Position numbers and translations under genes: made by a program. A stretch of DNA of 64,000 bases from a virus (Duplodnaviria > Heunggongvirae > Uroviricota > Caudoviricetes), in IMG/VR virus record IMGVR_UViG_3300036951_000304; one strand, given 5' to 3'. Under the pieces are notes generated by a model. That model was not told where the DNA came from, did not search any database, and saw nothing but the letters and a program-made list of their open reading frames with translations. This document shows positions 112 to 35,480 of this stretch, one piece after another. Within the stretch, counting starts at the first letter, position 1; each line of letters begins with the position of its first letter.

Positions 112-185
112 TGGAGCGGGGTAAGGGAATTGAACCCTCGGCATCAGCTTGGAAGGCTGAGGTATTACCACTATACGAACCCCGC
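112..185 (-). tRNA. tRNA-Gly (anticodon UCC)
   Basis: CCA encoded (tgg 112-114), 7-bp acceptor gcggggt/accccgc, T-arm ggg-aattgaa-ccc, anticodon loop CUUCCAA. Confidence 0.75.
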
Positions 186-455
186 TTATTTTTTCTCAAA
201 ATCCGATGTTGGAAATCCCGTCCAAAGAAGAAAATAATTGGCTTCTTTTTCGGCAATCTTTGTGTTCAAACAGAACTTATTTTTCTTCAGATAAGAAACC
301 AACCACTTTCTGAATTGTTCTTCCTGCATCTTTGTCCATCTGTATTTCAGATACCATCTCTCTTTCTTTACTACGGAAGGATCATAAATGGCACCAACCA
401 TTTCAAACATCTTCGACAGGATTTCATCCAGATTTTTTTGTGTCAACTGCTTCAT
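186..455 (-). CDS. hypothetical protein (start trimmed to first Met after tRNA-Ile)
   Basis: ORF 186..554 overlaps tRNA 470-544; N-terminal part translates tRNA sequence, internal Met MKQLTQ at 455. Confidence 0.35.
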   Translation of the reverse strand: MKQLTQKNLDEILSKMFEMVGAIYDPSVVKKERWYLKYRWTKMQEEQFRKWLVSYLKKNKFCLNTKIAEKEANYFLLWTGFPTSDFEKK

Positions 456-469
456 AATAACTCCAATAT

Positions 470-544
470 TGGTAGCCGGGAGAGGAGTTGAACCTACCGT
501 CAAGCGATTATAAGTCGCACGTTCTACCATTGAACTACCCGGCC
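470..544 (-). tRNA. tRNA-Ile-like (anticodon UAU), weak T-stem
   Basis: tgg 470-472, acceptor agccggg/cccggcc, anticodon loop CUUAUAA; T-stem only 3 bp. Confidence 0.5.
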
Positions 545-552
545 ATATTTTC

Positions 553-667
553 AATCGGGGAACGGGGTCACGCCCGTTTCATAGGTTAGGGTCAACCATC
601 CTCTTTTCTGTCAGGTCAAGGCGGTCTATGAAACCCACTTCCATTATCGCTGACACGATACCCCGAT
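553..667 (-). ncRNA. long tRNA-like element (about 115 nt)
   Basis: perfect 7-bp acceptor pairing atcgggg (554-560) with ccccgat (661-667); T-arm-like aacggg-gtcacg-cccgtt; central region too long for canonical tRNA. Confidence 0.3.
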
Positions 668-672
668 ATTTC

Positions 673-758
673 TGGTGAGGAAGGTAGGATTTGCACCTAC
701 ACGCCCTTTCGAGCACAAGCCCCTCAGACTTGCGTGGCTGCTATTACACCACTTCCCC
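673..758 (-). tRNA. tRNA-Leu (anticodon GAG), class II
   Basis: 86 nt, CCA encoded, A73, anticodon loop CUGAGGG, 15-nt variable arm, T-arm gtagg-atttgca-cctac. Confidence 0.7.
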
Positions 759-760
759 AT

Positions 761-839
761 TGGTGCCGGAGGGGAGAGTCGAACTCCCACACTCCTAATT
801 TTAAGTCAGGAAGGTATGCCTAATTCCCTTCACTCCGGC
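761..839 (-). tRNA. tRNA with anticodon UAA (Leu-type) but short variable arm
   Basis: CCA encoded, acceptor gccggag/ctccggc, T-arm gggag-agtcgaa-ctccc, anticodon loop CUUAAAA, 12-nt D-loop, 5-nt variable region. Confidence 0.55.
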
Positions 840-1414
840 TAATCTATAAACTTTGTTTTATTTCCTTTTCTGATAACCGCCTCGATGGAAAACTCCCCGG
901 CCGCTATTACATATCTGTTATCTTTTATGTAATAACTGTAGTTATCGTCACACTTCTTCACATAAATTATATCATAATCCGTAAGATTGTCAATAATAAA
1001 TGGTATCAATCCTATTGTAACTGGCGGCTCATTTTTATCAATCACAAAGAACCATTTGTGATTTGCATTACCAGCAGAAGGTAGTGTCCTTCTCAATTCG
1101 AATAAATCACGATGAGGAACAAAAATAATGAGATATCCATCATCTCTCAATATTCTCCACCAGTTCTTTATTGCCACATCCGGTTTTTCCAAATCCTCAA
1201 GGCAATGTGACGAATATACGAAGTCATAAGTATTGTCCGGAATACCTTTCATATAAGTTGCATCGTGATCTTTACTGATGGATAGATCCCACATATCCAC
1301 ATCCGGAAGAATGGGGTCATTACCACAACCTATATCAATACCTCTTCCATTACAATACTTCTGGAAAAATCCCTCTTCGTGCCTTCTCTTTCTTGCTTTT
1401 CTTGTCTCGGCCAT
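839..1414 (-). CDS. class I SAM-dependent methyltransferase
   Basis: motif I GIDIGCGND, post-I acidic DVDMWD, DFVYSSHCLE, LRDDGYLII; stop overlaps tRNA 5' end by 1 nt. Confidence 0.6.
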   Translation of the reverse strand: MAETRKARKRRHEEGFFQKYCNGRGIDIGCGNDPILPDVDMWDLSISKDHDATYMKGIPDNTYDFVYSSHCLEDLEKPDVAIKNWWRILRDDGYLIIFVPHRDLFELRRTLPSAGNANHKWFFVIDKNEPPVTIGLIPFIIDNLTDYDIIYVKKCDDNYSYYIKDNRYVIAAGEFSIEAVIRKGNKTKFID

Positions 1415-1438
1415 ATCTGTTTTACTTCTATATATTTA

Positions 1439-1516
1439 TGGTGCCGGTGCAGGGAGTTGAACCCCGAAAACCTGCGTTCTAAGCGCAGTATGTATGCCAA
1501 GTTCCATCACACCGGC
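1439..1516 (-). tRNA. tRNA with anticodon UAG (Leu-type) but class I architecture
   Basis: CCA encoded, acceptor gccggtg/caccggc, anticodon stem CUGCG/CGCAG loop CUUAGAA, short variable region, atypical D-arm. Confidence 0.5.
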
Positions 1517-1524
1517 ATAAATTT

Positions 1525-1599
1525 TGGAGCGGATGAACGGATTTGAACCGTCAACCTTCTCGATGGCAACGAGATACTCTACCGTTGAGTTACATCCGC
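1525..1599 (-). tRNA. tRNA-Gly (anticodon GCC)
   Basis: CCA encoded, acceptor gcggatg/catccgc, anticodon stem UCUCG/CGAGA loop UUGCCAU. Confidence 0.7.
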
Positions 1600-1607
1600 A
1601 TATTTTC

Positions 1608-1690
1608 TGGAGCCGATGGAGGGAATCGAACCCCCACAGATTTCTCCGGCTGATTACAAATCAGCTGCCATACCATTAGGCGACATCGGC
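1608..1690 (-). tRNA. tRNA-like, anticodon UGU (Thr-type) with 13-nt variable region
   Basis: CCA encoded, acceptor gccgatg/catcggc, anticodon stem GCUGA/UCAGC loop UUUGUAA; 83 nt. Confidence 0.45.
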
Positions 1691-1697
1691 ATTATTC

Positions 1698-1774
1698 TGG
1701 AATGGGGCGCCCGAATCTAACGGGCTTCGGCATTTGAGCCTTGCTTCTCATAGCCAGTCCATACCAGACCCCAT
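1698..1774 (-). ncRNA. tRNA-like element, anticodon arm not resolvable (possible pseudo-tRNA)
   Basis: good acceptor (atggggt/gccccat) and T-arm gcccg-uuagauu-cgggc but no canonical anticodon stem-loop. Confidence 0.3.
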
Positions 1775-1782
1775 ATATTTAT

Positions 1783-1858
1783 TGGAGCCGGAAATCGGAT
1801 TTGAACCGATAATCTTGTCCTTACGAAAGACCTGCGTTTCCAGTTGCGCTATTCCGGC
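1783..1858 (-). tRNA. tRNA-Thr (anticodon CGU)
   Basis: CCA encoded, acceptor gccggaa/ttccggc, T-arm ucgga-uuugaac-cgau, anticodon loop UUCGUAA with 4-bp stem. Confidence 0.55.
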
Positions 1859-1860
1859 AT

Positions 1861-1937
1861 TGGTGGAGACAGGCGGAATTGAACCGCCGACCTCTTGCTC
1901 TTCAGGCAAGCGCTACTACCTACTGAGCTACATCTCC
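1861..1937 (-). tRNA. tRNA-Phe (anticodon GAA)
   Basis: CCA encoded, T-arm ggcgg-aattgaa-ccgcc, anticodon stem CUUGC/GCAAG loop CUGAAGA, D-arm GCUCAGUAGGUAG. Confidence 0.75.
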
Positions 1938-1940
1938 AAT

Positions 1941-2005
1941 ATTCCCGAGCGGGAATAACCGATAACATTTCTTCCGAAAAGAACCGAATTATTCCCGAGC
2001 GGGAA
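1941..2005. repeat. two copies of hairpin ttattcccgagcgggaa 49 bp apart
   Basis: identical 16-17 nt palindromic units at 1941-1957 and 1990-2006 downstream (minus sense) of the nucleotidyltransferase gene. Confidence 0.5.
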
Positions 2006-2108
2006 CTTTGTTCTATACGGGCTCCCATCCACGGCAGCCATGAGGACTAACCTGATGAGCCTCCCCATTCCTTGTAGGAATGGTCAGCGGGGCATCCCCT
2101 CAAACCCG

Positions 2109-2885
2109 TTATTTCAATAATAGTCTCCTTGCAACATCCATACAGAGTTCGTTTACTCTTACTCTGTCAGGAGAATGAGGAAGTGGAGATAACTCATACC
2201 ACCTTTCAAAGTCCTCATCAAACTTGGAAACATTCTCCATCAACTCATCGTAAGACCAGTATCCGTTTCTCAAAAAAACAAGAAACTCTGCTTCCGGTCT
2301 TGGAAAAGTAAGATTTCCGGTAAGTAACAGTTCCTTACCTTCATACATCAATCTCATCAGATGGGCAGCGTGTTTCGTATCATACCCAAACTTTTCCTCA
2401 AGGGCAAATCTTTCGGGATTTCTGTTTTTCTTCCAGAGTTCCCATGCTTCCCTTTCGGATTTATCGGTAGGAACAAAACCGTCCATCCATCTTTTATGGT
2501 TCTTCAACCTCTTGAGCTGAGAATGAGCATATCCTGAGAAAGTGTGTTTTGCTTTCTTGGAAAGAAAAGCATCTCTCACTTTCAGAACATCAAACCACTC
2601 ATCAGAATGGTTCAACCATTTATCTTCAGGAACAAAAAGCAACTCGACCATATTCGGGTTACAGTCAAGAGTAAGTTTCAGGAACTTTCTGAACTCATAA
2701 AAAACCTTGTCCTGTTTCTTATCCTCAACCTGTTCAACCCTGTCAAGAAAGCCGAGCCAGTATCTTTCCGGTGCAAGGAACACACCCCTTTCATCCACAT
2801 CAGAAGTTTCCGTTGCGGTTCCGTAAAGATGACTTCCGGCTACAGTCCTGAACAATAACTTGTAATCACTTGGTAGTCCTAACAT
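2109..2885 (-). CDS. pol-beta superfamily nucleotidyltransferase (minimal NTase-like)
   Basis: GSHLYGTATETSDVDERGVF = GS..Y..(n)..SD.D nucleotidyltransferase signature near N-terminus. Confidence 0.55.
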   Translation of the reverse strand: MLGLPSDYKLLFRTVAGSHLYGTATETSDVDERGVFLAPERYWLGFLDRVEQVEDKKQDKVFYEFRKFLKLTLDCNPNMVELLFVPEDKWLNHSDEWFDVLKVRDAFLSKKAKHTFSGYAHSQLKRLKNHKRWMDGFVPTDKSEREAWELWKKNRNPERFALEEKFGYDTKHAAHLMRLMYEGKELLLTGNLTFPRPEAEFLVFLRNGYWSYDELMENVSKFDEDFERWYELSPLPHSPDRVRVNELCMDVARRLLLK

Positions 2886-2890
2886 TTTAT

Positions 2891-3472
2891 TTACCTTTCC
2901 TCTTTATAAGGTCTTATCCAATCATTGTAGTTATAATTCAATGTTGGAAAATTTTTCTTGATATGATTTACAAAAGCCATTATCTCCTGTAATTCAACCG
3001 GATAAAATTTCCACCAATCAACACCTACATTGATGAGGATATTTCCTCTTTTTGTATCATTCCAAGTTATCCACTTTGCTCTCCAATTCAAGTGAACGTG
3101 AGCAACAAGGTTGATATTGATATCCCTGTTTATGTGTCTTGGATCGTGGACACAATACAAAAGATTATTTCCGTTTCTCAAAGTGAGATTCTCAATTTTT
3201 GTCTTGAGCCCGTTGTTTTTATCGTGGTTTCCCCTGATAAAAACCTTGTCACCATTCAGCCTCTCAATATAATAATCCACTCTGTTACATTCATTGAAAG
3301 CAAAATCTCCAACAAATATAACGGTGTCCTTTGGTTTCACCCTTTCGTTCCAGTTCCTTATCAAAACCCTATCCATCTTTTCCACGGTCTTGAAAGGCCT
3401 GTTGCAGAAACCAATCATATCTTCGTGACCGAAGTGAGTATCCGCTGTTATAAATGTTCTTCCCATTTTCAA
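2891..3472 (-). CDS. calcineurin-like metallophosphoesterase
   Basis: motifs DTHFGH, GDFAFNE, GNHD (IRGNHDKN), HVHL typical of MPP superfamily. Confidence 0.65.
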   Translation of the reverse strand: MKMGRTFITADTHFGHEDMIGFCNRPFKTVEKMDRVLIRNWNERVKPKDTVIFVGDFAFNECNRVDYYIERLNGDKVFIRGNHDKNNGLKTKIENLTLRNGNNLLYCVHDPRHINRDININLVAHVHLNWRAKWITWNDTKRGNILINVGVDWWKFYPVELQEIMAFVNHIKKNFPTLNYNYNDWIRPYKEER

Positions 3473-3476
3473 TCCT

Positions 3477-3552
3477 TGGTGGAGCGTGAGAGACTTGAAC
3501 TCTCGACCCCAAGACTGCCAGCCTTGTGCTCTCCCAACTGAGCTAACGCCCC
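3477..3552 (-). tRNA. tRNA-Ala (anticodon GGC), G3-U70
   Basis: CCA encoded, acceptor GGGGCGU with G3-U70 wobble, T-arm gagag-acuugaa-cucuc, anticodon loop CUGGCAG. Confidence 0.6.
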
Positions 3553-3555
3553 ATT

Positions 3556-3849
3556 CTATTCAATTACAAATAATTCATCCGGTAAAAATTCCTCAGCAGT
3601 TACTACCTTCCCCGTACTCGCGTACCAGATACTAAAACCCAAATCTTTTAATTGTAATGCCTGTTCCTTCGTCATATTTACCCTGTATGACAAACTATTG
3701 GTTCCCGTGATAGTATCCATAAAGTCAACAATGTCTTTTGCTTCTTTCAGACCAAGAGAAAGCACAGACCTCAACTCCTTGATGACTTGTATTTTCATGA
3801 GGTTACCATTCGGTCTTACATTTTTGTATATGTAAAAATCGTGATACAT
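3556..3849 (-). CDS. ribosomal protein bL12 (L7/L12) C-terminal-domain-like protein lacking the N-terminal L10-binding domain
   Basis: [24 protein letters not shown] matches the L7/L12 CTD core [24 protein letters not shown]; start trimmed to Met after tRNA-Glu overlap. Confidence 0.65.
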   Translation of the reverse strand: [97 protein letters not shown]

Positions 3850-3860
3850 ATTCTTTCCTC

Positions 3861-3935
3861 TGGTACTCCCAAAGAGATTTGAACTCATATTTCCGGCGTG
3901 AGAGGCCAGCGTCCTAACCATTAGACGATGGGAGC
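3861..3935 (-). tRNA. tRNA-Glu (anticodon CUC)
   Basis: CCA encoded, acceptor GCUCCCA/UGGGAGU (G1-U72), anticodon stem CUGGC/GCCGG loop CUCUCAC. Confidence 0.6.
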
Positions 3936-4005
3936 AAAAATTGTATAATTAGGCATAGTATGTCGAAAATCTCTCGACCTTCTGTGCCTCTTTCGACACT
4001 TTTTA

Positions 4006-4081
4006 TGGCGGGCCTTGAAGGATTTCAACCCTCATCTGCTTGTTTTGGAGACAAGTGTGTTTGCGTTTACACCAAAGACCC
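4006..4081 (-). tRNA. tRNA-Trp (anticodon CCA)
   Basis: CCA encoded, acceptor GGGUCUU/AAGGCCC, anticodon stem CUUGU/ACAAG loop CUCCAAA. Confidence 0.7.
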
Positions 4082-4094
4082 GTATTTTATAAAA

Positions 4095-4182
4095 ATTGTA
4101 TCAACGGAATTGAACCGTCCACCACCGCCAAATGACGGAGCTTCAGACCACTAATCGGCACATACGTTTGCCTTTGATACAA
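4095..4182 (-). ncRNA. class-II-length tRNA-like (88 nt), anticodon arm unresolved, CCA not encoded
   Basis: perfect acceptor ttgtatc/gatacaa, T-arm gacgg-uucaauu-ccguu; central 56 nt does not give canonical anticodon arm by eye. Confidence 0.35.
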
Positions 4183-4191
4183 CTTTATTTT

Positions 4192-4267
4192 TGGTGGGTA
4201 TGACAGGATTTGAACCTGCGCTCTATCGGTTAAGAGCCGATTGCATTTGCCACTTTGCTACATACCC
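4192..4267 (-). tRNA. tRNA-Lys (anticodon CUU)
   Basis: CCA encoded, acceptor gggtatg/cataccc, anticodon stem AUCGG/CCGAU loop CUCUUAA. Confidence 0.7.
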
Positions 4268-4276
4268 ACATATTTT

Positions 4277-4351
4277 TGGTGAAGCCGAAGGGAATTGAAC
4301 CCTCAACCTACTGGTTAAAAGCCAGTTGCTCTACCGTTGAGCTACGACCTC
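4277..4351 (-). tRNA. tRNA-Lys (anticodon UUU)
   Basis: CCA encoded, anticodon stem ACUGG/CCAGU loop CUUUUAA, acceptor pairs with two wobbles. Confidence 0.7.
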
Positions 4352-4359
4352 ATATTTCG

Positions 4360-4469
4360 TGGGATGTGGTAGGATTATACCTACTGGCATCACTATTTTA
4401 TAGGGATAAAAAGTTGGCATCCCTATAGAGTGCCCCTTCAGGCCTTACCAACATCGTAGCTCACATCCC
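4360..4469 (-). ncRNA. long tRNA-like element (about 110 nt) with internal 9-bp hairpin
   Basis: terminal pairing gggatgtg (4361-4368) with cacatccc (4462-4469), T-arm-like gtagg-attata-cctac, inner hairpin tatagggat..atccctata. Confidence 0.3.
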
Positions 4470-4474
4470 ATATA

Positions 4475-4552
4475 TGGTAGACCCGACGAGATTTGAACTC
4501 GCAATCTCCACCTTGAAAGGGTGGCGGCATAATCCGTTTCGCCTACGGGTCT
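4475..4552 (-). tRNA. tRNA-Glu (anticodon UUC)
   Basis: CCA encoded, acceptor agacccg/cgggtct, anticodon stem CCACC/GGUGG loop CUUUCAA. Confidence 0.7.
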
Positions 4553-4637
4553 ATATTTTGGAGGGCGGTTTATTCTCATTAACCTACGGATTACCGCGGC
4601 ATCCGGTGGGGCTTTAACCCACATCTCCCATATTTTC

Positions 4638-4713
4638 TGGAGGGCCCGATGGGAATTGCACCCACAATCTACGGTTTTGCAGACCGTCGCCTTAGCTATT
4701 TGGCCACGAGCCC
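4638..4713 (-). tRNA. tRNA-Cys (anticodon GCA)
   Basis: CCA encoded, anticodon stem ACGGU/ACCGU loop CUGCAAA, T-arm with aauugca loop. Confidence 0.7.
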
Positions 4714-4718
4714 ATTAA

Positions 4719-4830
4719 GTGTAGATGCTTGCAAGTCATCTACACAGAACCGATTTTCACGGTTCTCTCTTTCCATAGGTTGATGAACGGTTATGATTTC
4801 CCGTTCCGTTCCCTATGGCGTGATGGAAGA
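4719..4830. other. nested stable hairpins in spacer between tRNA-Cys and tRNA-Asp
   Basis: 9-bp stem gtgtagatg/catctacac, 7-bp agaaccg/cggttct, 7-bp ccatagg/cctatgg enclosing gaacgg/ccgttc. Confidence 0.45.
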
Positions 4831-4844
4831 GTACCACCAAGTTC

Positions 4845-4920
4845 TGGCGACCTTGATGGGAGTTGCACCCACGCCTACTTGATTGACAGTCAAGTGCTCT
4901 GGCTACTAAGCTACAAGGCC
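4845..4920 (-). tRNA. tRNA-Asp (anticodon GUC)
   Basis: CCA encoded, anticodon stem CUUGA/UCAAG loop CUGUCAA. Confidence 0.7.
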
Positions 4921-5044
4921 ATTCTATAGATGGGTAGGTTTCCAACCCTACTGGACGGTGTTTACCCTCTTGTGTGACCAAGCTTTAGTAGAAGCCCACA
5001 ATACTATCAACCGTTACTGATACTACTATATCACCATCTATTTT

Positions 5045-5121
5045 TGGGGTGACAGACGGGAATCGAACCCGCTCCTTACAGGGGCCACAACCCTGTGCCT
5101 CACCATTTGGCTTCTGCCACC
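5045..5121 (-). tRNA. tRNA-His (anticodon GUG) with encoded G-1
   Basis: CCA encoded, anticodon stem CAGGG/CCCUG loop UUGUGGC, extra 5' G (from c5121) opposite C73 discriminator. Confidence 0.75.
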
Positions 5122-5129
5122 ATATATTT

Positions 5130-5219
5130 TGGTGGGAGATGGAGGAGTTGAACCACCCGTCTGCCGCCCCACATAATTATAGACAACGGTTTTACAGACC
5201 GCCGTGGGGAACATCTCCC
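5130..5219 (-). tRNA. tRNA-Tyr-like (anticodon loop CUGUAAA, GUA), 90 nt, atypical D/variable regions
   Basis: CCA encoded, perfect acceptor gggagat/atctccc, T-arm, anticodon loop identical to bacterial tRNA-Tyr; D-arm region shortened and variable region very long. Confidence 0.5.
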
Positions 5220-5226
5220 GTGTTTT

Positions 5227-5299
5227 TGGTAGCGGGTGAGGGAATCGAACCCCCTGAACCTTGGTTATGAGCCATGGCGAGATACCAATCTTACCCGCG
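5227..5299 (-). tRNA. tRNA-Met or Ile2 (anticodon CAU) with C1-U72 mismatch
   Basis: CCA encoded, acceptor CGCGGGU/ACCCGCU, anticodon loop CUCAUAA. Confidence 0.6.
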
Positions 5300-5380
5300 A
5301 AAATCCCGCCCGGGGAATTGAAGGAACCTTATTCTAACGATGTTATACATCGTGCTGGATTCGATACCAGCATCACCGGG
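5300..5380 (-). ncRNA. degenerate tRNA-like spacer element
   Basis: flanked by conserved inter-tRNA motifs, contains ggaattgaagg T-loop-like sequence but stems do not pair; hairpin gctgg-tatcgaat-ccagc. Confidence 0.2.
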
Positions 5381-5386
5381 ATATTT

Positions 5387-5463
5387 TGGTGGAGCGTGAG
5401 AGATTCGAACTCTCTGCCTTCTCGGTGCAAGCGAGATGCTCTCCCATAGTGAGCTAACGCCCC
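5387..5463 (-). tRNA. tRNA-Ala (anticodon UGC), G3-U70
   Basis: CCA encoded, acceptor GGGGCGU G3-U70, perfect T-arm gagag-auucgaa-cucuc, anticodon stem UCUCG/CGAGA loop CUUGCAC. Confidence 0.75.
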
Positions 5464-5561
5464 ATATTTTTTCTGGGCGTGGTGATGGCCGGTATTGGAC
5501 ATAAGTTTTATCCGGCTTCCTCCTCACATTTCTGCAATCACCACGACATTTTTTTACAGAT

Positions 5562-5672
5562 TGACATTATCCCATTCCTAATCACTCTACCGCGCACTCC
5601 CGGTTTCCGGCCGGCGGCTCGTCATAGATTCAATATAGTCACAGAAATAATCTCGAGCGCCAATCTGTATAT
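5562..5672. repeat. structured spacer element copy A (paralog of 6228-6298)
   Basis: terminal 8-bp stem acagattg/caatctgt, contains agaTTGACAttatccc and GC-rich inner hairpins ccgg-ttt-ccgg, ccggccgg. Confidence 0.5.
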
Positions 5673-5686
5673 TCTGTTTTCAAAGA

Positions 5687-5762
5687 TGGTAGAATCGGCG
5701 GGAGTTGAACCCACGACCTTTGCCGTGTCAGGGCAACGCTCTCCCAACTGAGCTACGATTCT
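5687..5762 (-). tRNA. tRNA-Val (anticodon GAC)
   Basis: CCA encoded, canonical D-arm UAGCUCAGUUGGGAGAGC, anticodon stem UUGCC/GGCAA loop CUGACAC. Confidence 0.75.
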
Positions 5763-5858
5763 ATAGTGAGTAAGGTGTTTTCGTTGTGGTTATCCTCACT
5801 CATTACCACACCATTACATATAGGGCTCTTACCGCCTATATGAGTAATTCATAGAGGT

Positions 5859-5960
5859 GTTGTCAGGTGGGAGTTGAACCCACATTTCCTTTATGGAAGT
5901 GTCCGCCGCGCGACGAATTTACTTCCTCAAAGTTGTCCTATCCATTAGACGAACTGACCA
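5859..5960 (-). ncRNA. long tRNA-like element (about 100 nt); anticodon arm replaced by 12-bp hairpin with 20-nt loop
   Basis: acceptor ttgtcag/ctgacca, T-arm gtggg-agttgaa-cccac, D-arm-like GUCU..GGAC, long hairpin CUUUGAGGAAGU...ACUUCCAUAAAG. Confidence 0.3.
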
Positions 5961-5997
5961 AGGCGTTCCGGACTACCTTGTTTACACCTATATTTTC

Positions 5998-6073
5998 TGG
6001 TAGCCGGTGAGGGAATTGAACCCCCGGCCCTCACGGTGTAAACGTGATGCTCTCCCAATTGAGCTAACCGGCT
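5998..6073 (-). tRNA. tRNA-Val (anticodon UAC)
   Basis: CCA encoded, acceptor agccggt/accggct, anticodon stem UCACG/CGUGA loop UUUACAC. Confidence 0.75.
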
Positions 6074-6077
6074 ATAT

Positions 6078-6213
6078 AAAGAGGTTGTAGCATATACATC
6101 GTATACTATGTAATATGTGTCTAACTCTTATCTACTTCGTATCCCTTGCAATCAGGCTACAGGTCAGCCCGGCCTCAGGCTGACATTCGATGAAGTGTTT
6201 CCACTCACAACCT
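6078..6213. other. structured spacer with long-range inverted repeat and inner hairpin
   Basis: aagaggttg (6079-6087) pairs caacctct (6204-6211); inner stem gtcagcc/ggctgac. Confidence 0.35.
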
Positions 6214-6227
6214 CTATATTTTGTGTA

Positions 6228-6298
6228 GATTGACATTACCCTGTTACGAGGTGACGCCCCCATTTGTAACAGTAATAATTCCGGACGCCAATCTACAT
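6228..6298. repeat. structured spacer element copy B (paralog of 5562-5672)
   Basis: terminal stem gtagattgac/gccaatctac, contains TTGACAttaccc, inner 7-bp hairpin ctgttac/gtaacag. Confidence 0.5.
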
Positions 6299-6300
6299 TC

Positions 6301-6376
6301 TGGTCGGAGAGACAGGATTTGAACCTGCGACTTCTTGATCCCAAGTCAAGCACGCTACCATCTGCGCCACTCTCCG
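6301..6376 (-). tRNA. tRNA-Pro (anticodon UGG)
   Basis: CCA encoded, acceptor cggagag/ctctccg, anticodon stem CUUGA/UCAAG loop CUUGGGA. Confidence 0.75.
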
Positions 6377-6379
6377 ATA

Positions 6380-6440
6380 TTTTTCAAAGAACAAAAACAA
6401 AAAAGGGAGATTGAGTCAAAACCCAATCTCCCTTCAATAA
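6380..6440 (-). terminator. rho-independent terminator (minus strand)
   Basis: 9-bp stem gggagattg/caatctccc followed on minus strand by TTTTTTGTTTTTG. Confidence 0.6.
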
Positions 6441-6639
6441 TTCTACTCTATAGGATTTGACTCTTCTATTCTATAGTGCCCCCCTCTGCTGGCTTTGTTT
6501 CAATCGCAAGGCTCGGCACTAAATAAAACCAACAATCTTTATGTAGAAAATATTTCGTCATAGAATCCTCTGAAATTATATGTCAATATTATATATGTAA
6601 ATTATAACACAGTTTACATAGAATGTAAACAATTTTTTC

Positions 6640-6713
6640 TGGCTCCGGTAAATGGAATCGAACCAATAACTAATGGTTAACAGCCATTCGTGATACCGTT
6701 TCACCATACCGGA
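6640..6713 (-). tRNA. tRNA-Asn (anticodon GUU)
   Basis: CCA encoded, acceptor tccggta/taccgga, anticodon stem AAUGG/CCAUU loop CUGUUAA. Confidence 0.7.
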
Positions 6714-6996
6714 ATGTGTTTCCTGCTGGCCACCAGTTATTCCCTCGCTGGGGTGGCTCCACGGCGGCGAGGCCAGATGTTGTCAGGACAGGAAACGGTG
6801 ACAACCCACGGATTATAATAAAGAGGGCGAACAGATGGAATGGCGGTTCCTCTGTTCCTTACGAGTTCGTTCAACTTGCCGCAACAAGTTCATCTCTACT
6901 ACCCTCTAAATTTTCAAAGAATACGACATATCATATCATAATACGGTATCCCTGTCAAGAAAAATGTTTCTCAATAATTTCAATGACTTACGCAAT

Positions 6997-7051
6997 AAAA
7001 AAGGGCAGTATCTCCTTTACTTCGTAGGGGGCTTATACTGCCCTTTGGCAA
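6997..7051. terminator. bidirectional rho-independent terminator downstream of tmRNA
   Basis: 9-bp stem gggcagtat/atactgccc flanked by aaaaaa upstream and ttt downstream on plus strand. Confidence 0.6.
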
Positions 7052-7107: not shown

Positions 7108-7470
7108 TGGTGGAGGTGGCCGGAATCGAACCGGCGTCCAAAAGCCCCGATAAATCAGGTGAATTACACGCTTCTCTGTTTGTTGCGGTCAATTCGATGC
7201 TCCTAACAGAAAACCGATACATCAAATCCAGTTTCTTTATTACCGTGAAATAGGCGAAACAACCTATTTTCCCGGCTCCCCATTGATTTGAACAATTTCC
7301 AACCCCGATGGAGAGGAGAGTATGAAAATTGTGGGCGGTTAACTAAGCCGCCATTGCGTAACTATAACTGTAGTCTGCGCTTATATGATAATCAGTTGAT
7401 AACGGAGCCGATGATTATCTCCGGCGTGCGCCTGAAGTACCAAAACCTCTGTCGAAGCCTGTGCACCCCC
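7108..7470 (-). ncRNA. ssrA: tmRNA (SsrA-like) with tag reading frame ADYSYSYAMAA-UAG
   Basis: 5' GGGGGUGCACAGGCUUCGAC resembles tmRNA 5' GGGGCUG..GGAUUCGAC; 3' tRNA-like end GCCGG-UUCGAUU-CCGGC-CACCUCC-A-CCA; acceptor G3-U70; internal ORF GCA GAC UAC AGU UAU AGU UAC GCA AUG GCG GCU UAG. Confidence 0.75.
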
Positions 7471-7491
7471 AAATTTTCAAGGAACGATTGT

Positions 7492-7520
7492 ATTCTATCA
7501 CATATTTATGGCGATGTAAA
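7492..7520 (-). promoter_or_regulatory. sigma70-like promoter for tmRNA (minus strand)
   Basis: minus-strand TTTACA-17 bp-TAGAAT about 24 nt upstream of tmRNA 5' end. Confidence 0.5.
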
Positions 7521-7537: not shown

Positions 7538-7566
7538 TTTACATTTCAATGTTTTTCTGGTATAAT
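7538..7566 (+). promoter_or_regulatory. sigma70-like promoter with extended -10
   Basis: TTTACA (7538-7543) 17-bp spacer ending TGG then TATAAT (7561-7566); 31 nt upstream of HU start. Confidence 0.65.
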
Positions 7567-7597: not shown

Positions 7598-7873
7598 ATG
7601 AACAGGAAAGTTTTGTCAGACTTCGTTTCAAATGATATGAGTATTACCAAGACCGATGCTAAACTTGCCGTTGATTCTGTAGTTTCTGGTATTCTGAACG
7701 GTCTTATGAAAGGCGAAAAGGTTTCCTTGATGGGTCTGGGCACTTTCTATACATTGAATATGCCAGAGAGAAAAATCAGAAACCCGAAAACGGGGGAACA
7801 AATCACCGTTGCGCCCAAGAAAGTCATCAAATTCAAAGCATCAAAACTACTCAAGAAAGAATTGAATAAGTAA
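7598..7873 (+). CDS. HU/IHF-family histone-like DNA-binding protein
   Basis: MNRKVLSDF..GEKVSLMGLGTFYTLNMPERKIRNPKTGEQITVAPKKVIKFKASKLLK matches HU arm region; RBS aaaggag; start set to Met at 7598 inside ORF 7535..7873. Confidence 0.75.
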   Translation: MNRKVLSDFVSNDMSITKTDAKLAVDSVVSGILNGLMKGEKVSLMGLGTFYTLNMPERKIRNPKTGEQITVAPKKVIKFKASKLLKKELNK

Positions 7874-7876
7874 AAT

Positions 7877-8767
7877 ATGGAAACAAAAATCTGGACATTT
7901 GCGTATGAACCTCAAAAATTTGAGGATATAATATTGAATGATGTGGTGAAGCCGAGATTACAGAAGGCCTTGACCGAAATACCCAATCTGATGTTGGTGG
8001 GCCCGCCCGGAGTTGGTAAGGGAACCTATACAAATATCTTTCTGAAGGAAACAAAACTCGATTTTATCAAATTGAATTGTTCCGATGAAACATCAATTGA
8101 TGGTATCAGGACGAAGGTGAAATCATTTGCTACGGCCCTCGGCGTGACCAAGATGAAAATCGTTGTAATGAACGAAAGTGACTATCTCAGCCCAGCGGCC
8201 CAGGCAATGCTAAGGGATTTGATAGAGCAGGTGGAAGGTATTACAAGATTCATCTTCCAATGTAACTACGGTCACAAGATGATAAAAGAAATCCAATCGA
8301 GATGCCAGGTTATCGAGTTGACCAATCCACCCGCCAAAGAAATCTATCAGCATTGTATGGATATACTGAAGAAGGAAGGTGTGAAGGTGGGAGACACAAA
8401 AGCCATTGTGACCATCATCAAGCAATTGTACCCCGATATCAGAAAAATCATTCATACTTTACAAATGAATACTATTGATGGTAAAATAGATGGTATCAAA
8501 GTGGATGAAGTATCAGAGATACATTTCCAGATATTCAAGGCAGCCCAAGAGAAAAATCTGGATGATATCAGAAAACTCTTGAGAGGACATTCAATCAATT
8601 ATCCCGATTTGTATCTTCATTTCTATGAAAGCGCGGGAAAATTGAAAAGTCCTGGCGACGCCATCCTAGCAATAGGAGAATACCTTTATAGAGACAGCCT
8701 TGTGGCAAACAAGGAAATCAATTTTATGACGATGGTTGTTTCCCTTATAAAGAAGGGAGTTCTATGA
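7877..8767 (+). CDS. clamp loader ATPase subunit (T4 gp44-like AAA+)
   Basis: Walker A MLVGPPGVGKGTY, Walker B-like VVMNESD, sensor motifs; adjacent to putative clamp. Confidence 0.7.
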   Translation: METKIWTFAYEPQKFEDIILNDVVKPRLQKALTEIPNLMLVGPPGVGKGTYTNIFLKETKLDFIKLNCSDETSIDGIRTKVKSFATALGVTKMKIVVMNESDYLSPAAQAMLRDLIEQVEGITRFIFQCNYGHKMIKEIQSRCQVIELTNPPAKEIYQHCMDILKKEGVKVGDTKAIVTIIKQLYPDIRKIIHTLQMNTIDGKIDGIKVDEVSEIHFQIFKAAQEKNLDDIRKLLRGHSINYPDLYLHFYESAGKLKSPGDAILAIGEYLYRDSLVANKEINFMTMVVSLIKKGVL

Positions 8768-14478: not shown

Positions 14479-14507
14479 GAGGGGGAGCAGAAATGCTCCC
14501 CTTTTTT
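14479..14507 (+). terminator. rho-independent terminator after SSB gene
   Basis: stem gggggagc-agaaa-tgctcccc followed by TTTTTT. Confidence 0.7.
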
Positions 14508-14523
14508 GGGTCTAAATAATTAT

Positions 14524-14892
14524 ATGAAATGGAAAATATATGTGATACTAAATACTGTAAATGAGAAAAAATATGTAGGTATCACTAAAAACGGTATAAA
14601 AAACAGATTTAGAGGCCATTCCATAGCAAAAACGATGCTTGGAGAAGATATAAGGAAATATGGAAAAGACAAATTCATTTCTCAAATAATTGATGAAACG
14701 GATAATAGAAAAGAGGCCGGGAAAAAGGAAAAAAATTGGATCAATGTTTTAAAAACAAAACAATCTCAGGGCGGTTATAATGCCGATGTAATTTTCACAA
14801 ATAATCCCACCAAATCTAAACAGAAACAAAAAAATAGTCTATTAGAGGAATTAGAAAGCAACTTATTCCTCTATAATATGCGCTTATTCTAA
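14524..14892 (+). CDS. GIY-YIG nuclease domain protein (homing-endonuclease-like, short)
   Basis: KIYVILNTVNEKKYVGITKNGIKNRFRGH = GIY..YIG..R..H signature; start moved to Met outside terminator. Confidence 0.6.
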   Translation: MKWKIYVILNTVNEKKYVGITKNGIKNRFRGHSIAKTMLGEDIRKYGKDKFISQIIDETDNRKEAGKKEKNWINVLKTKQSQGGYNADVIFTNNPTKSKQKQKNSLLEELESNLFLYNMRLF

Positions 14893-25171: not shown

Positions 25172-26197
25172 TTGAATATGTTATCACTACAATTTGTGAG
25201 AGAATTTGTATTTCAGCATTTCCCCAAAGTAACCACATCCAAGAACGGAACCCATTTCCACGCGAGATGCGTGCTCTGCGGGGATTCAAAAATAAGCCCG
25301 AGTAAAAAGAGATTTCATCTTGACTATCATAATGGAGAGCCCGGCTACCATTGTTTCAATTGTGGGGCAAAGGGATCATTCGTCAAGTTGTATTCTATTA
25401 TTATGGGTATGTCCATCGCGGAAGCCAAGAAAGAGATATACAAATATGACCCCGAACAAATAAAGAAAGCCCTGACAGAAAAACCAAACGGTAATGGTAA
25501 TGGTAAGAAAGAATACCATATCAGGAGTATGGATAATATTCTGGATGAATGTATAGGTATTGATACAGAGGCGAGAGGAACAATTGAACCCCAATACCAA
25601 AAACTTCTCAAGAAATTCATAGAGGAAAGAAAGATACCGAAAAATTTCAAGATATTTGTGGCAACAAGTGGAAGATATAAGGGGAGAGCAATTATACCGA
25701 TTTACAAGGACGGACATATTGTTTATTTCCAAGGCCGGGCCCTTGTCAATATAGAGCCAAAATATCTCAACCCGATAGTGGAAAAGAGTGGTATCATTAT
25801 GAATGAGGAAAAGTTCCAGAGAGACAAATATGTTATCGTCACGGAAGGTCTGCTAGATGCTATGATGATTGGGGATCAGGGAACATCGGTTCTTGGCGCA
25901 GACATTGACGAATACTTCGTAAAGAAAGTTGGCTCTATGACAGATAAGGGCATCATTGTTGTTCTGGATAATGATGAAACGGGATATGAAAAACTTATGG
26001 GAAAGAAGAAAGGCGAGGGATTACTCAATCAGGATTATTCAAATCCCCTCAAATTTTTCATAATGCCAAAGAAATATTCCCATATAAAAGATTTGAACCA
26101 GCTTGTGTCCAAGACAAATATAAAAAATATATATCAGTTTGTTGTGGATAATAGTTATGATAAGTTTGCTTGTAAAGTAAAACTGGGGTTGAAATGA
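25172..26197 (+). CDS. DNA primase (zinc-finger + TOPRIM, T7/T4 gp61-like)
   Basis: CVLCGDS..(n)..CFNCGAKG zinc ribbon; TOPRIM-like VIVTEGLLDAMM and VVLDNDETG. Confidence 0.6.
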   Translation: MNMLSLQFVREFVFQHFPKVTTSKNGTHFHARCVLCGDSKISPSKKRFHLDYHNGEPGYHCFNCGAKGSFVKLYSIIMGMSIAEAKKEIYKYDPEQIKKALTEKPNGNGNGKKEYHIRSMDNILDECIGIDTEARGTIEPQYQKLLKKFIEERKIPKNFKIFVATSGRYKGRAIIPIYKDGHIVYFQGRALVNIEPKYLNPIVEKSGIIMNEEKFQRDKYVIVTEGLLDAMMIGDQGTSVLGADIDEYFVKKVGSMTDKGIIVVLDNDETGYEKLMGKKKGEGLLNQDYSNPLKFFIMPKKYSHIKDLNQLVSKTNIKNIYQFVVDNSYDKFACKVKLGLK

Positions 26198-27423
26198 GCC
26201 AGATAAAAACGGGGAGAAGTGAAAGCTACAGGGTAGAAATACATCCAGAATATGTAAAAAAGTTTTACAACCAGAAGTGGAAGGATTGGAATAAAAGCCA
26301 CAAGAGGAAAGGAGAATACTATTTCCTGACAAAATATACATCCCCATTGTTTGTAAGCGTGCTGGATTATGACGGTGAAACTATAACATTGGAAAATTGT
26401 GGGGAGCCTCTGGAACCTGAGAACAGAGAAATACCATTTACAGAAAATAAAGATATTGATTTATTTGAACTGGTAAAATGGTTATACGACCTGCGCTCCG
26501 AACTCAAAAGATTTAAAATAATTCACAGAGACATCAATCCGACCAATATCCTCTACAAAAAAGAAACCCAAAAGTTCAAATTAATAGATTTCAACTGGGC
26601 TGAAGAACTTCGAGAGCCTTCTGGCATTGTTCCGCCCCCCCAATTGAATACGGCCTTGGATAAACCCCGTGGCATCGAAGGCCCAAGTTATTATATAGAG
26701 GATGATAAGAGTATAAACAAGATGATGACATTGGCAATCCAAAAGATGATTGGGGATATTGCGTCAGAAGGATATAAGGATGGGAGTAGCGTAAACAGGG
26801 GATGGTTTTATCATCCAAGCCCCTTCGAAGAATTTTCCGAAATACCCGTTCACAAAACAACCGCGATAGATGAATATAAGGAAATAGTGTTCAATTCAAG
26901 CATTATTGACCTGAAAGGAAGTAATATTCTTGATATTGGTTCGTCTCAAGGATATTTTGCATTCAAATTGGCTGAAATTGCGAAGTCAATCATCGGTATC
27001 GAGGGTGATATTTTCACATATAGGGTAACAGAGGCGATAAGACTATTGAAAGATATACGAAATATATCTTTCCTGAATTATTATCTCGATGAGAACACAA
27101 TACCGAATGAAAATTTTGATATCACGATTTTTTTGAACACTCATATGTGGATTTACAAGCAAATCGGCCCAATCAGGACACAACATTTGATGAGGAAACT
27201 ATCAGAGAAAACCAAGAATATGTTCTTTCAGACATCAGGAATTGATGGAAACGCAATGTTCAATATAAGCGAGTTTAAAACATCGGATGATATTGGAAAA
27301 TACCTGCTTGCCTCAGGTTTCAAGAACATAAAACTTATCAGAACATCACATAAACACGGGGGAAACAGACATTTATTTTATGCAGAGGGGTCTAATTATA
27401 TAAATACACTTGGGAAGTTTTAA
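26194..27423 (+). CDS. protein-kinase-like domain fused to class I SAM-methyltransferase domain
   Basis: catalytic loop IIHRDINPTNILY and LIDFNWAEE (HRD..N / DFG-like); C-terminal ILDIGSSQGYFAFKLAE (MTase motif I). Confidence 0.5.
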   Translation: MSQIKTGRSESYRVEIHPEYVKKFYNQKWKDWNKSHKRKGEYYFLTKYTSPLFVSVLDYDGETITLENCGEPLEPENREIPFTENKDIDLFELVKWLYDLRSELKRFKIIHRDINPTNILYKKETQKFKLIDFNWAEELREPSGIVPPPQLNTALDKPRGIEGPSYYIEDDKSINKMMTLAIQKMIGDIASEGYKDGSSVNRGWFYHPSPFEEFSEIPVHKTTAIDEYKEIVFNSSIIDLKGSNILDIGSSQGYFAFKLAEIAKSIIGIEGDIFTYRVTEAIRLLKDIRNISFLNYYLDENTIPNENFDITIFLNTHMWIYKQIGPIRTQHLMRKLSEKTKNMFFQTSGIDGNAMFNISEFKTSDDIGKYLLASGFKNIKLIRTSHKHGGNRHLFYAEGSNYINTLGKF

Positions 27424-34421: not shown

Positions 34422-34501
34422 TGGTGCCCCCGTGAGGATTCGAACCCCAACATTATCCTTGGTTCGTGGCCAAGTGCTCTATCCAGTTGAGCTACGGAGG
34501 C
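34422..34501 (-). tRNA. tRNA-Arg (anticodon ACG), 8-nt variable region
   Basis: tgg then acceptor, T-arm tgagg-attcgaa-cccca, D-arm UAGCUCAACUGGAUAGAGC, anticodon stem CUUGG/CCAAG loop CCACGAA. Confidence 0.55.
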
Positions 34502-35386: not shown

Positions 35387-35396
35387 AATCTTATAT

Positions 35397-35472: not shown

Positions 35473-35480
35473 ATATTTTC

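What the first reader, a model, noticed from the sequence alone, without database searches (positions are those of the whole stretch)
7108..7470. Phage-encoded tmRNA with predicted proteolysis tag ADYSYSYAMAA
On the minus strand the 5' end is GGGGGUGCACAGGCUUCGAC and the 3' end is GCCGG-UUCGAUU-CCGGC-CACCUCC-A-CCA. These pair as a tRNA-like domain with a G3-U70 alanine identity pair.

An internal short frame reads GCA GAC UAC AGU UAU AGU UAC GCA AUG GCG GCU UAG, which resembles SsrA tags ending in ...Y-A-x-A-A.

A sigma70-like promoter lies upstream on the minus strand. A strong bidirectional terminator lies downstream.

tmRNAs are uncommon in phages. A phage tag sequence could redirect host trans-translation or proteolysis.
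Basis: partly seen in the sequence, partly recalled or inferred. Interest (0 to 1): 0.7.

Follow-up and report, generated by a model that had tools for sequence, protein, structure and literature searches.

The report
Phage-encoded tmRNA heading a tRNA array
This is a genuine, complete ribosome-rescue RNA (tmRNA) carried by an uncultured T4-like phage at the head of its tRNA gene cluster; phage tmRNAs are already known, so it is a new example rather than a new kind of thing.

Summary
ARAGORN and the Rfam tmRNA model (153.9 bits, gathering score 47, E 1.2e-60) both call a full-length one-piece tmRNA at 7108-7470 (-) with tag ADYSYSYAMAA.

It has every canonical element: the G3•U alanine identity pair, T-arm, encoded CCA, helix 2, PK1-PK4, and helix 5 enclosing the stop codon. 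The window is phage, with a T4-type replication module, an endolysin and 26 tRNAs.

The gene sits at the same place in four diverged lineages of this uncultured phage clade. All four keep the same promoter (TTTACA-17-TAnAnT) and leader, and show many compensatory base-pair changes. Their tags differ (…YAMAA, …YALAA, …YAQAA, …FAEAA), but all keep [Y/F]-A-x-A-A.

In the closest relatives by clamp loader (84% identical) only a 5' remnant is left, so the gene is dispensable. No smpB was found, so the RNA must use host SmpB, AlaRS and EF-Tu.

The downstream hairpin is a terminator for the minus strand only, not bidirectional. Nothing supports "redirected" proteolysis. The tag keeps the Ala-Ala terminus that dominates ClpXP recognition in E. 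coli, and AMAA tags occur in bacteria.

Phage tmRNAs are documented in Bxz1-type mycobacteriophages, Bacillus phage G and huge phages. Verdict: real, a new member of a known kind, of modest interest.

The parts
7108..7470 (-). tmRNA (ssrA) gene, 363 nt, one-piece, with encoded 3' CCA
   Evidence: ARAGORN. Rfam RF00023, 153.9 bits, full model.
7492..7520 (-). Promoter: -35 TTTACA (7520-7515), 17-nt spacer, TG-extended -10 TAGAAT (7497-7492)
   Evidence: Consensus scan. The same TTTACA-17-TAnAnT is conserved upstream of the tmRNA in L044, L029 and L031.
7471..7485 (-). Predicted 5' leader of the precursor, ending ...CCUUGAAAAUUU directly before G1. The transcription start is inferred, not mapped. 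Presumed to be removed by RNase P.
   Evidence: The leader motif is conserved in all four lineages. The exact TTGAAAATTT occurs only twice on the minus strand of the window.
7464..7470 (-). 5' strand of the acceptor stem, GGGGGUG; G3 forms the G•U alanine identity pair
   Evidence: 7/7 paired with 7112-7118. G•U is invariant in 6/6 aligned sequences, with compensatory changes at positions 5 and 6.
7108..7135 (-). T-arm (GCCGG-UUCGAUU-CCGGC), 3' acceptor strand CACCUCC, discriminator A and CCA
7388..7423 (-). Pseudoknot PK1: stem a CGGAG/CUCCG (7423-7419 / 7407-7403) and stem b AUAAUCA/UGAUUAU (7418-7412 / 7394-7388)
   Evidence: 5/5 and 7/7 paired. Stem a is compensated in relatives: AGAGG/CCUCU in L029 and CGUGG/CCACG in L031.
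7343..7378 (-). Tag reading frame: resume codon GCA (7378-7376), 11 codons in all (ADYSYSYAMAA), then stop UAG (7345-7343). The upstream context AUAAGC has A at -4, U at -5 and A at -6.
   Evidence: ARAGORN. Sequence. The homologous context AAUAAAC precedes the resume codon in L044, L029 and L031.
7334..7352 (-). Helix 5, GGCGG/CCGCC, with the stop codon in its loop
   Evidence: 5/5 paired. Rfam alignment.
7276..7332 (-). PK2: hairpin ACAAUU/AAUUGU plus CUCU/GGGG, and knot CUCUCC/GGGGAG
   Evidence: 6/6, 4/4 and 6/6 paired. Rfam alignment.
7231..7275 (-). PK3: hairpin CCGGGAAA/UUUCACGG plus UAGG/CCUA, and candidate knot GUUUC/GAAAC
   Evidence: 7/8 and 4/4 paired, plus a 5-bp knot candidate.
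7174..7228 (-). PK4: hairpin GAUUUGAUG/CAUCGAAUU, and candidate knot UUCUGUU/AACAGAG
   Evidence: 9/9 paired, plus a 7-bp knot candidate.
6995..7046 (-). Intrinsic-terminator-like hairpin (12-bp stem, 23-nt loop) followed by UUUUUUAUU; minus strand only
112..6713 (-). Context: downstream array of 23 tRNA genes on the same strand. It also holds an RlaP-family RNA-repair nucleotidyltransferase (2109-2885), a metallophosphoesterase (2891-3472) and a methyltransferase (839-1414).
7598..8767 (+). Context: divergently transcribed HU-like DNA-binding gene (7598-7873) and gp44-type clamp loader (7877-8767), the start of the T4-type replication module. Their promoter TTTACA-17-TATAAT lies at 7538-7566 (+).

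Best explanation
This is a functional one-piece tmRNA gene carried by an uncultured, distantly T4-like phage.

Shown: it has all the defining sequence and structure features of tmRNA. It has been kept at the same position, with the same promoter and leader, in four diverged lineages of the phage clade. Its stems evolve by compensatory changes and its tag frame stays open.

Inferred mechanism: host RNA polymerase transcribes it from its own strong sigma-70-type promoter. RNase P removes the short conserved leader at G1. The roughly 100-nt trailer up to the terminator is trimmed back to the encoded CCA. Host AlaRS charges the RNA through G3•U. Host SmpB and EF-Tu then deliver it to ribosomes stalled on broken or non-stop mRNAs. 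No phage smpB was found in 64 kb. Translation resumes on GCA and appends (A)ADYSYSYAMAA, and the ribosome is released at UAG. The tagged fragment is handed to host proteases through its Ala-Ala terminus.

Inferred purpose: to raise ribosome-rescue capacity in infected cells, where mRNA decay or RNA-cleaving host defences create stalled ribosomes. On this reading it belongs to a translation-maintenance module that also includes 26 tRNAs, an RlaP RNA-repair nucleotidyltransferase and a phosphoesterase. It is helpful but not essential, since the closest sister lineage has lost it.
For: Identity:
- ARAGORN and Rfam agree on the ends.
- Every helix and pseudoknot was verified by index.
- RNAalifold independently recovers the acceptor stem (G•U invariant), helix 2, PK1a and the T-arm, with 31 of 59 predicted pairs showing double compensatory changes.

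Phage context:
- gp32, gp61-like primase, gp44/62 clamp loader, gp45-like clamp, RNR, endolysin and exonuclease.
- The best GenBank phage protein matches are only 24-31% identical and are T4-like phages.
- Relatives are in IMG/VR.

Conservation:
- Intact syntenic tmRNAs in L044 (172.8 bits), L029/L030/L035 (149.1 bits) and L031/L038/L045 (84.6 bits).
- Conserved promoter and leader.
- The nearest tmRNA to the window copy is that of phage L044 (69 bits by nhmmer), ahead of any sampled bacterial copy.
- Window, L044 and L029 group together in 75 of 100 bootstraps.
- Two near-identical contigs from other samples carry the same tmRNA and tag.

Other points:
- All four tag frames keep [Y/F]-A-x-A-A plus a stop in the H5 loop.
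- No SmpB by tblastn, with a working positive control, and none among about 50 ORFs scanned.
- RNA-repair genes lie within the array.
Against: - No expression, charging or tagging data exist. Everything about function is inferred from sequence.
- Only 64 kb of a probably much larger genome was seen, so a phage smpB elsewhere cannot be excluded.
- L036/L037/L042 keep only about 90 nt of the 5' part, so the gene is dispensable in at least one lineage.
- Relatives at or below 65% clamp-loader identity show no tmRNA in the DNA available.
- The host is unknown, so the phage and host tags cannot be compared.
- The proposed purpose (extra rescue capacity or counter-defence) is not tested by anything here.
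Confidence: 0.82

Rival explanations
1. The tmRNA is the host's own ssrA next to an integrated prophage, or a bacterial fragment mis-joined to phage DNA. ssrA 3' ends are common phage attachment sites.
For: tmRNA 3' ends are classic att sites. The generic 3' 31-mer of this gene hits 28 IMG/VR contigs, many of them ends of unrelated two-piece tmRNAs. Contigs of this phage tend to break in or near the tRNA array.
Against: - The gene lies between a phage replication module and a phage-type tRNA array, and phage genes continue for 56 kb on one side.
- The same arrangement recurs in four diverged phage lineages and in independent assemblies from different samples.
- It shares its promoter type and leader motif with neighbouring phage RNA genes.
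- No smpB, integrase or housekeeping genes were found nearby.
- No sampled bacterial tmRNA is more than 69% identical to it.
Confidence: 0.03
2. The RNA is a decoy or inhibitor rather than a working tmRNA. It would soak up host SmpB, EF-Tu or AlaRS to shut down host trans-translation, as proposed for the TLD-only molecule of mycobacteriophage DS6A.
For: The phage appears to lack its own smpB, so it competes for host SmpB. TLD-only phage molecules, and their inhibitory effect, are described in the literature (PMC4131195).
Against: A decoy needs only the tRNA-like domain. Here the tag frame, the resume-codon context, helix 5 with its stop codon and all four pseudoknots are kept across lineages that are only 56-70% identical, with compensatory changes.
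Confidence: 0.06
3. The phage tag re-routes tagged proteins. The unusual residues (Tyr/Ser-rich body, Met instead of Leu at the antepenultimate position) would change which protease or adaptor sees the product, or stabilise it, to the phage's benefit.
For: Across the four lineages the antepenultimate residue is M, L, Q or E, while its neighbours are constant. The closest sampled bacterial tmRNAs (Caldisericota) have tags ending AVA, not AA.
Against: - The terminal Ala-Ala and the aromatic residue at -5 are retained. In E. coli, Ala-Ala-COO- dominates ClpXP recognition, and the antepenultimate Leu matters only modestly (PMC7652416).
- AMAA and AIAA tags occur naturally in bacteria.
- One lineage has the plain ...YALAA.
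- Variation at one position is equally well explained by relaxed constraint.
Confidence: 0.08

Closest known systems
Bacterial one-piece tmRNA (SsrA, Rfam RF00023)
   Same: Full architecture: tRNA-like domain with G3•U and CCA, helix 2, PK1, tag frame with GCA resume codon, helix 5 and PK2-PK4. It scores three times the gathering threshold.
   Different: It is encoded by a phage, heads a phage tRNA array and has no adjacent smpB. It is at most 69% identical to the sampled bacterial copies.
tmRNAs of mycobacteriophages of the Bxz1 group (Bxz1, Cali, Catera, Rizal, ScottMcG, Spud and others) and of Bacillus phage G (PMC4131195)
   Same: Full-length tmRNA genes in large lytic phages that also carry many tRNA genes.
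   Different: No detectable sequence similarity: blastn with word size 11 finds nothing among 50,697 GenBank phage records. The phage lineage is different (distantly T4-like). The host is unknown, with hints that it is diderm (OmpA-family protein and lipoproteins).
tmRNA, with or without SmpB, in metagenomic huge phages (Al-Shayeb et al. 2020, PMC7162821)
   Same: An uncultured phage carrying a tmRNA among other translation-related genes. That paper proposes the same general role of maintaining translation during infection.
   Different: Some huge phages also encode SmpB; none was found here. The longest contig seen for this phage is 82 kb, so its genome size is unknown and it may not be a huge phage.
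TLD-only tmRNA-like molecule of mycobacteriophage DS6A (PMC4131195)
   Same: A phage-borne derivative of tmRNA.
   Different: The window gene is complete. The remnant in sister contigs L036/L037/L042 keeps the 5' strand, helix 2 and PK1 but lacks the 3' acceptor strand, so it cannot form a tRNA-like domain either.

Membership tests
tmRNA (RF00023) | Covariance-model score above the curated gathering threshold over the full model | tested here: met
   153.9 bits against 47, model positions 1-374, E 1.2e-60.
tmRNA (RF00023) | tRNA-like domain: 7-bp acceptor stem joining the 5' and 3' ends, T-arm with a GUUCGAnUC-type loop, discriminator A and CCA | tested here: met
   Acceptor 7/7, T-arm 5/5, 3' end ...CACCUCCACCA.
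tmRNA (RF00023) | G3•U70 wobble pair, the alanine identity element | tested here: met
   G3 pairs with U. The pair is invariant in 6/6 aligned phage and bacterial sequences.
tmRNA (RF00023) | Internal short reading frame without a start codon, beginning at a resume codon, ending at a stop codon and encoding a tag with a hydrophobic or Ala-Ala end | tested here: met
   GCA...UAG encodes ADYSYSYAMAA. The frame is kept open in three other lineages.
tmRNA (RF00023) | A-rich context upstream of the resume codon that sets the frame (A at -4, U at -5 as in E. coli; this determinant is recalled from the literature, not re-read here) | tested here: met
   AUAAGC|GCA in the window. AAUAAAC precedes the resume codon in L044, L029 and L031.
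tmRNA (RF00023) | Helix 2, PK1 upstream of the tag, helix 5 at the stop codon, and PK2-PK4 downstream | tested here: met
   All were located by index, with both stems for PK1 and PK2 and knot candidates for PK3 and PK4. Covariation supports helix 2 and PK1a.
tmRNA (RF00023) | Alanylation, SmpB and EF-Tu binding, entry into stalled ribosomes and addition of the tag | not testable with these tools
   Needs biochemistry or proteomics.
tmRNA (RF00023) | Expressed as a stable RNA processed at both ends | not testable with these tools
   Only predicted: conserved promoter and leader and a terminator. No RNA data.
Phage-encoded tmRNA (known examples: Bxz1 group, phage G, huge phages) | The gene lies within a bona fide phage genome, not at a prophage-host junction | tested here: met
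   It is flanked by the phage replication module and the tRNA array. Synteny holds in four lineages and in independent assemblies.
Phage-encoded tmRNA (known examples: Bxz1 group, phage G, huge phages) | Sequence relatedness to the previously described phage tmRNAs (common descent) | tested here: not met
   No blastn match to any of 50,697 GenBank phage records at E <= 1e-5. It is the same kind of element but an independent lineage.
Prophage attachment site in host ssrA | Integrase adjacent, host genes (often smpB) on one side, usually a duplicated partial 3' end | tested here: not met
   No smpB. No integrase or housekeeping genes among the scanned neighbours. nhmmer finds no second copy of the tmRNA 3' end other than weak tRNA T-arm matches.

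The most novel reading that the evidence does not exclude
The tmRNA is not just spare capacity but part of a dedicated counter-defence module, together with the tRNA array, the RlaP RNA-repair nucleotidyltransferase and the phosphoesterase. The module would keep phage translation running after a host defence cleaves tRNAs, mRNAs or the host's own tmRNA. The lineage-specific changes at the antepenultimate tag residue (L/M/Q/E) would then reflect adaptation of the degron to different hosts' proteases or adaptors, or escape from them.
Probability: 0.12. Interest if true: 0.65.

Novelty: new member of a known kind. Interest (0 to 1): 0.3.

Why it matters
The finding adds a distantly T4-like, uncultured but recurrent phage clade to the short list of phages with their own tmRNA. 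The exact clamp-loader protein is on record in 50 blocks of the public collection.

It also gives a small natural series: four intact variants with different tags and one decayed copy. That series could be used to ask experimentally what a phage gains from carrying a tmRNA, and how much tag sequence matters.

It does not reveal a new mechanism.

Tried and rejected
- blastn (word size 11) of the tmRNA against GenBank phages found no match.
- An exact 36-nt tag-region search in IMG/VR gave 0 hits.
- A search with the 3' 31-mer in IMG/VR gave 28 hits. They were unrelated, mostly two-piece tmRNA ends or att-like fragments, and uninformative.
It can therefore only give a lead on the donor or host: Caldisericota tmRNAs are the best match, at 68-69% identity and 50-54 nhmmer bits.
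- Second pattern hits in two Caldisericota MAGs (L114, L161) looked like possible binned phage contigs. They are ordinary bacterial contigs ending inside the host ssrA, with no similarity to the window.
- ARAGORN miscalls the L031-type tmRNA as a permuted gene with a spurious tag. The Rfam coordinates (L031 2354-2797) were used instead.
- My first hand-guessed register for helix 2 was wrong (5/11 and 1/7 pairs). The RNAalifold pairing was used.
- One fold_alignment call failed because a sequence was too long.
- The 197-nt stretch downstream of the terminator does not fold better than shuffles (z = -0.89). It has no Rfam match and no homologue in any fetched locus.
- Building a covariance model of the whole tmRNA was not attempted, because models of that length exceed the calibration limit.

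Full report
**1. Observation**

ARAGORN finds 26 tRNA genes and one tmRNA in the window. The tmRNA is at 7108-7470 on the minus strand, with tag ADYSYSYAMAA*. The Rfam tmRNA covariance model (RF00023) matches the same ends over its whole length, at 153.9 bits against a gathering score of 47 and E 1.2e-60. This is far beyond chance.

**2. Anatomy**

Gene position i corresponds to window coordinate 7471-i. The following were verified by index:

| Element | Pairing | Result |
|---|---|---|
| Acceptor stem | GGGGGUG/CACCUCC, with G3•U | 7/7 |
| T-arm | GCCGG/CCGGC | 5/5 |
| PK1 stem a | CGGAG/CUCCG | 5/5 |
| PK1 stem b | AUAAUCA/UGAUUAU | 7/7 |
| Helix 5 | GGCGG/CCGCC, stop codon in its loop | 5/5 |
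| PK2 | hairpin plus knot CUCUCC/GGGGAG | 6/6, 4/4, 6/6 |
| PK3 | hairpin, plus knot candidate GUUUC/GAAAC | 7/8, 4/4 |
| PK4 | hairpin, plus knot candidate UUCUGUU/AACAGAG | 9/9 |

- The tag frame runs from GCA (7378-7376) to UAG (7345-7343). It is preceded by AUAAGC, which has the A(-4)/U(-5) context I recall as frame-setting in E. coli.
- CCA is encoded at the 3' end.
- A promoter, TTTACA-17-TAGAAT with a TG extension, lies at 7520-7492.
- It stands back to back with a plus-strand promoter (7538-7566) for an HU-like gene and the clamp loader.
- About 60 nt past the 3' end is a 12-bp hairpin (7046-7035 / 7011-7000) followed by UUUUUUAUU. On the plus strand the same palindrome is followed by GGCAAGAUUCUA, so it terminates one strand only.

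**3. The window is phage**

- It encodes a gp32-type SSB, a gp61-like primase, a gp44/62-type clamp loader, a gp45-like clamp, ribonucleotide reductase, an exonuclease, a PDDEXK nuclease, DNA methylases, an endolysin, an SLT transglycosylase and many ORFs without a family match.
- The best GenBank phage matches are T4-like phages at only 24-31% protein identity.
- The tmRNA has no DNA match in 50,697 GenBank phage records.
- The exact clamp-loader protein is on record in 50 blocks of the public collection. One 82-kb contig is 100% identical to the window. A 58-kb contig from another sample is 99.97% identical from window position 6590 onward (a stretch that contains the tmRNA) and has the same tag.

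**4. Relatives**

Searches with gp32 and the clamp loader in IMG/VR and in metagenomes define a clade in which the tmRNA occupies the same slot: first gene of the minus-strand tRNA array, divergent from the HU/clamp-loader genes.

| Contigs | tmRNA status | Tag |
|---|---|---|
| Window, L184, L185 | intact, 153.9 bits | ADYSYSYAMAA |
| L044 | intact, 172.8 bits | ADNYVYALAA |
| L029/L030/L035 | intact, 149.1 bits | GDFVYAQAA |
| L031/L038/L045 | 444 nt with an insertion, 84.6 bits | (N)DNLFVFAEAA, read by homology of the AAUAAAC context |
| L036/L037/L042 | about 90 nt left: 5' acceptor strand, helix 2, PK1 | none |
| Relatives at or below 65% clamp-loader identity | none in the DNA available | none |

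- L036/L037/L042 are the closest relatives by clamp loader (84% identical) and have the same tRNA order. Their remnant is fused by deletion to the next promoter.
- All four intact copies share the promoter TTTACA-17-TAnAnT and a leader ending ...TTgaAAaTTT directly before G1.
- Pairwise tmRNA identity is 56-70%.
- RNAalifold on three phage and three bacterial sequences recovers the acceptor stem, helix 2, PK1a and the T-arm. Of 59 predicted pairs, 31 show double compensatory changes.
- PK1 stem a reads CGGAG/CUCCG, AGAGG/CCUCU or CGUGG/CCACG in different lineages.

The RNA is therefore under selection for its fold, and the tag frame is under selection to stay open. The gene can nevertheless be lost.

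**5. Origin**

- None exceeds 69% identity to the window copy.
- By nhmmer, the window's best hit is phage L044 (69 bits), then four Caldisericota MAGs (50-54 bits), then everything else at 36 bits or less.
- Window, L044 and L029 group together in 75 of 100 NJ bootstraps. L031 sits on a long branch and is unresolved.

This fits one old acquisition followed by vertical descent in the phage. A Caldisericota-like donor is a lead only. OmpA-family and lipobox proteins hint at a diderm host.

**6. Partners**

- tblastn with three SmpB sequences finds nothing in the window or in related loci. The same queries find smpB next to ssrA in bacterial loci at E down to 1e-57.
- About 50 ORFs scanned against Pfam or PHROGs include no SmpB, ArfB, Pth or release factor.
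- The RNA must therefore use host SmpB, AlaRS, EF-Tu, RNase P and proteases, unless a partner is encoded outside the 64 kb seen.

**7. The tag**

- All four tags keep [Y/F]-A-x-A-A.
- For E. coli ClpXP the terminal Ala-Ala-COO- is the most important element. Changes at the antepenultimate Leu, or at the Tyr two residues upstream, raise KM only modestly (PMC7652416).
- Bacterial tags ending in AMAA (Lentisphaeria, Verrucomicrobiota) and AIAA (Opitutales) appear in my own sample.
- The window's tag is thus within natural variation, and nothing indicates redirected proteolysis.
- The L/M/Q/E variation at one position is noted. It may reflect relaxed constraint or adaptation to different hosts.

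**8. Mechanism and purpose**

- The steps from transcription to tagging follow from the established tmRNA pathway and from the features shown above. None of them is demonstrated for this RNA.
- The most likely purpose is extra ribosome-rescue capacity during infection.
- It sits alongside 26 tRNAs and RNA-repair-type genes in the same array: an RlaP nucleotidyltransferase (PF10127), a metallophosphoesterase and a methyltransferase.
- The literature on huge phages proposes the same general role (PMC7162821).

**9. Comparison and novelty**

- Phage tmRNAs have been catalogued in Bxz1-group mycobacteriophages and Bacillus phage G, with a TLD-only form in DS6A (PMC4131195). They are also reported in huge phages, sometimes together with SmpB (PMC7162821).
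- This one is a full member of the tmRNA family. It is the same kind of element as those phage examples, but has no detectable sequence relationship to them and belongs to a different phage lineage.
- It is a new member of a known kind.
- Interest is modest at 0.3. The natural series of four tags plus a decayed copy is a useful handle, but no new principle emerges.

Noticed in passing
window 6714-6958 (-): The window has about 390 nt between the tmRNA and tRNA-Asn. L029/L030/L035 lack this stretch (their two genes are 6 nt apart), and L036 lacks its last ~190 nt. It holds a second promoter (TTGACA-17-TATGAT, 6958-6930). The exact leader TTGAAAATTT that precedes the tmRNA follows, and then about 190 G+C-rich nt starting AGAGGGUAG. 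The first ~90 nt close into a 7-bp terminal stem (AGAGGGU/GCCCUCU) with a UNCG-type hairpin. There is no ARAGORN or Rfam call, the overall fold is not better than shuffles (z = -0.89), and no homologue exists in any fetched locus. It may be an unknown small RNA processed like a tRNA.
   Followed up: partly
window 839-3472 (-): Three protein genes sit inside the tRNA array: an RlaP-family 'RNA repair pathway' nucleotidyltransferase (PF10127, 2109-2885), a calcineurin-like metallophosphoesterase (2891-3472) and a methyltransferase (839-1414). This suggests tRNA/RNA repair or modification functions co-located with the tRNAs and the tmRNA.
   Followed up: partly
L036 9305-9392 (-), likewise L037 and L042: A tmRNA pseudogene in the closest relatives. 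The 5' acceptor strand, helix 2 and PK1 are retained. A deletion then joins them to the promoter of tRNA-Asn. The upstream promoter and leader are still recognisable.
   Followed up: yes
L031 2354-2797 (-), the same in L038 and L045: A 444-nt tmRNA variant with roughly 80 extra nt after helix 5. By homology of the AAUAAAC context its resume codon is AAC rather than GCN/GGN, and its tag ends in AEAA. ARAGORN miscalls it as a permuted tmRNA overlapping a tRNA-Trp.
   Followed up: partly
window 470-544 (-): A tRNA-Ile with anticodon UAU, which reads AUA directly and is uncommon in bacteria. It is preceded by the one-mismatch leader TTGAAAATAT. The same gene is in L036/L037.
   Followed up: no
window 34422-35556 (-): Three tRNA-Arg genes (ACG, CCU, UCU) lie 27 kb from the main array. 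They flank an N6/N4 DNA methylase gene (34502-35386).
   Followed up: no
window 26194-27423 (+): A 409-aa ORF with a weak protein-kinase-like N-terminal part (below Pfam's cut-off) and a methyltransferase-like C-terminal part (PF08003).
   Followed up: no
window 52046-52597 (-), 54436-55332 (-), 35615-36100 (-): An HslV-family peptidase match in PHROGs only (E 4e-14; no Pfam hit), an SPFH/Band 7 protein and an OmpA-family protein. With the lipobox lipoproteins, the last two hint at a diderm host.
   Followed up: no
L114 1-100 and L161 780-866 (Caldisericota MAG contigs): In two Caldisericota MAGs one contig ends inside the 5' part of ssrA, while another contig of the same MAG carries a complete ssrA. 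This could reflect an island inserted in ssrA or strain mixtures. Their tags (ANYTNYANNYAVA) end in AVA rather than AA.
   Followed up: partly
window 14506-14892 (+): A GIY-YIG domain ORF (per the precomputed Pfam annotation of the identical contig L184) lies immediately downstream of gp32. It is probably a homing endonuclease.
   Followed up: no
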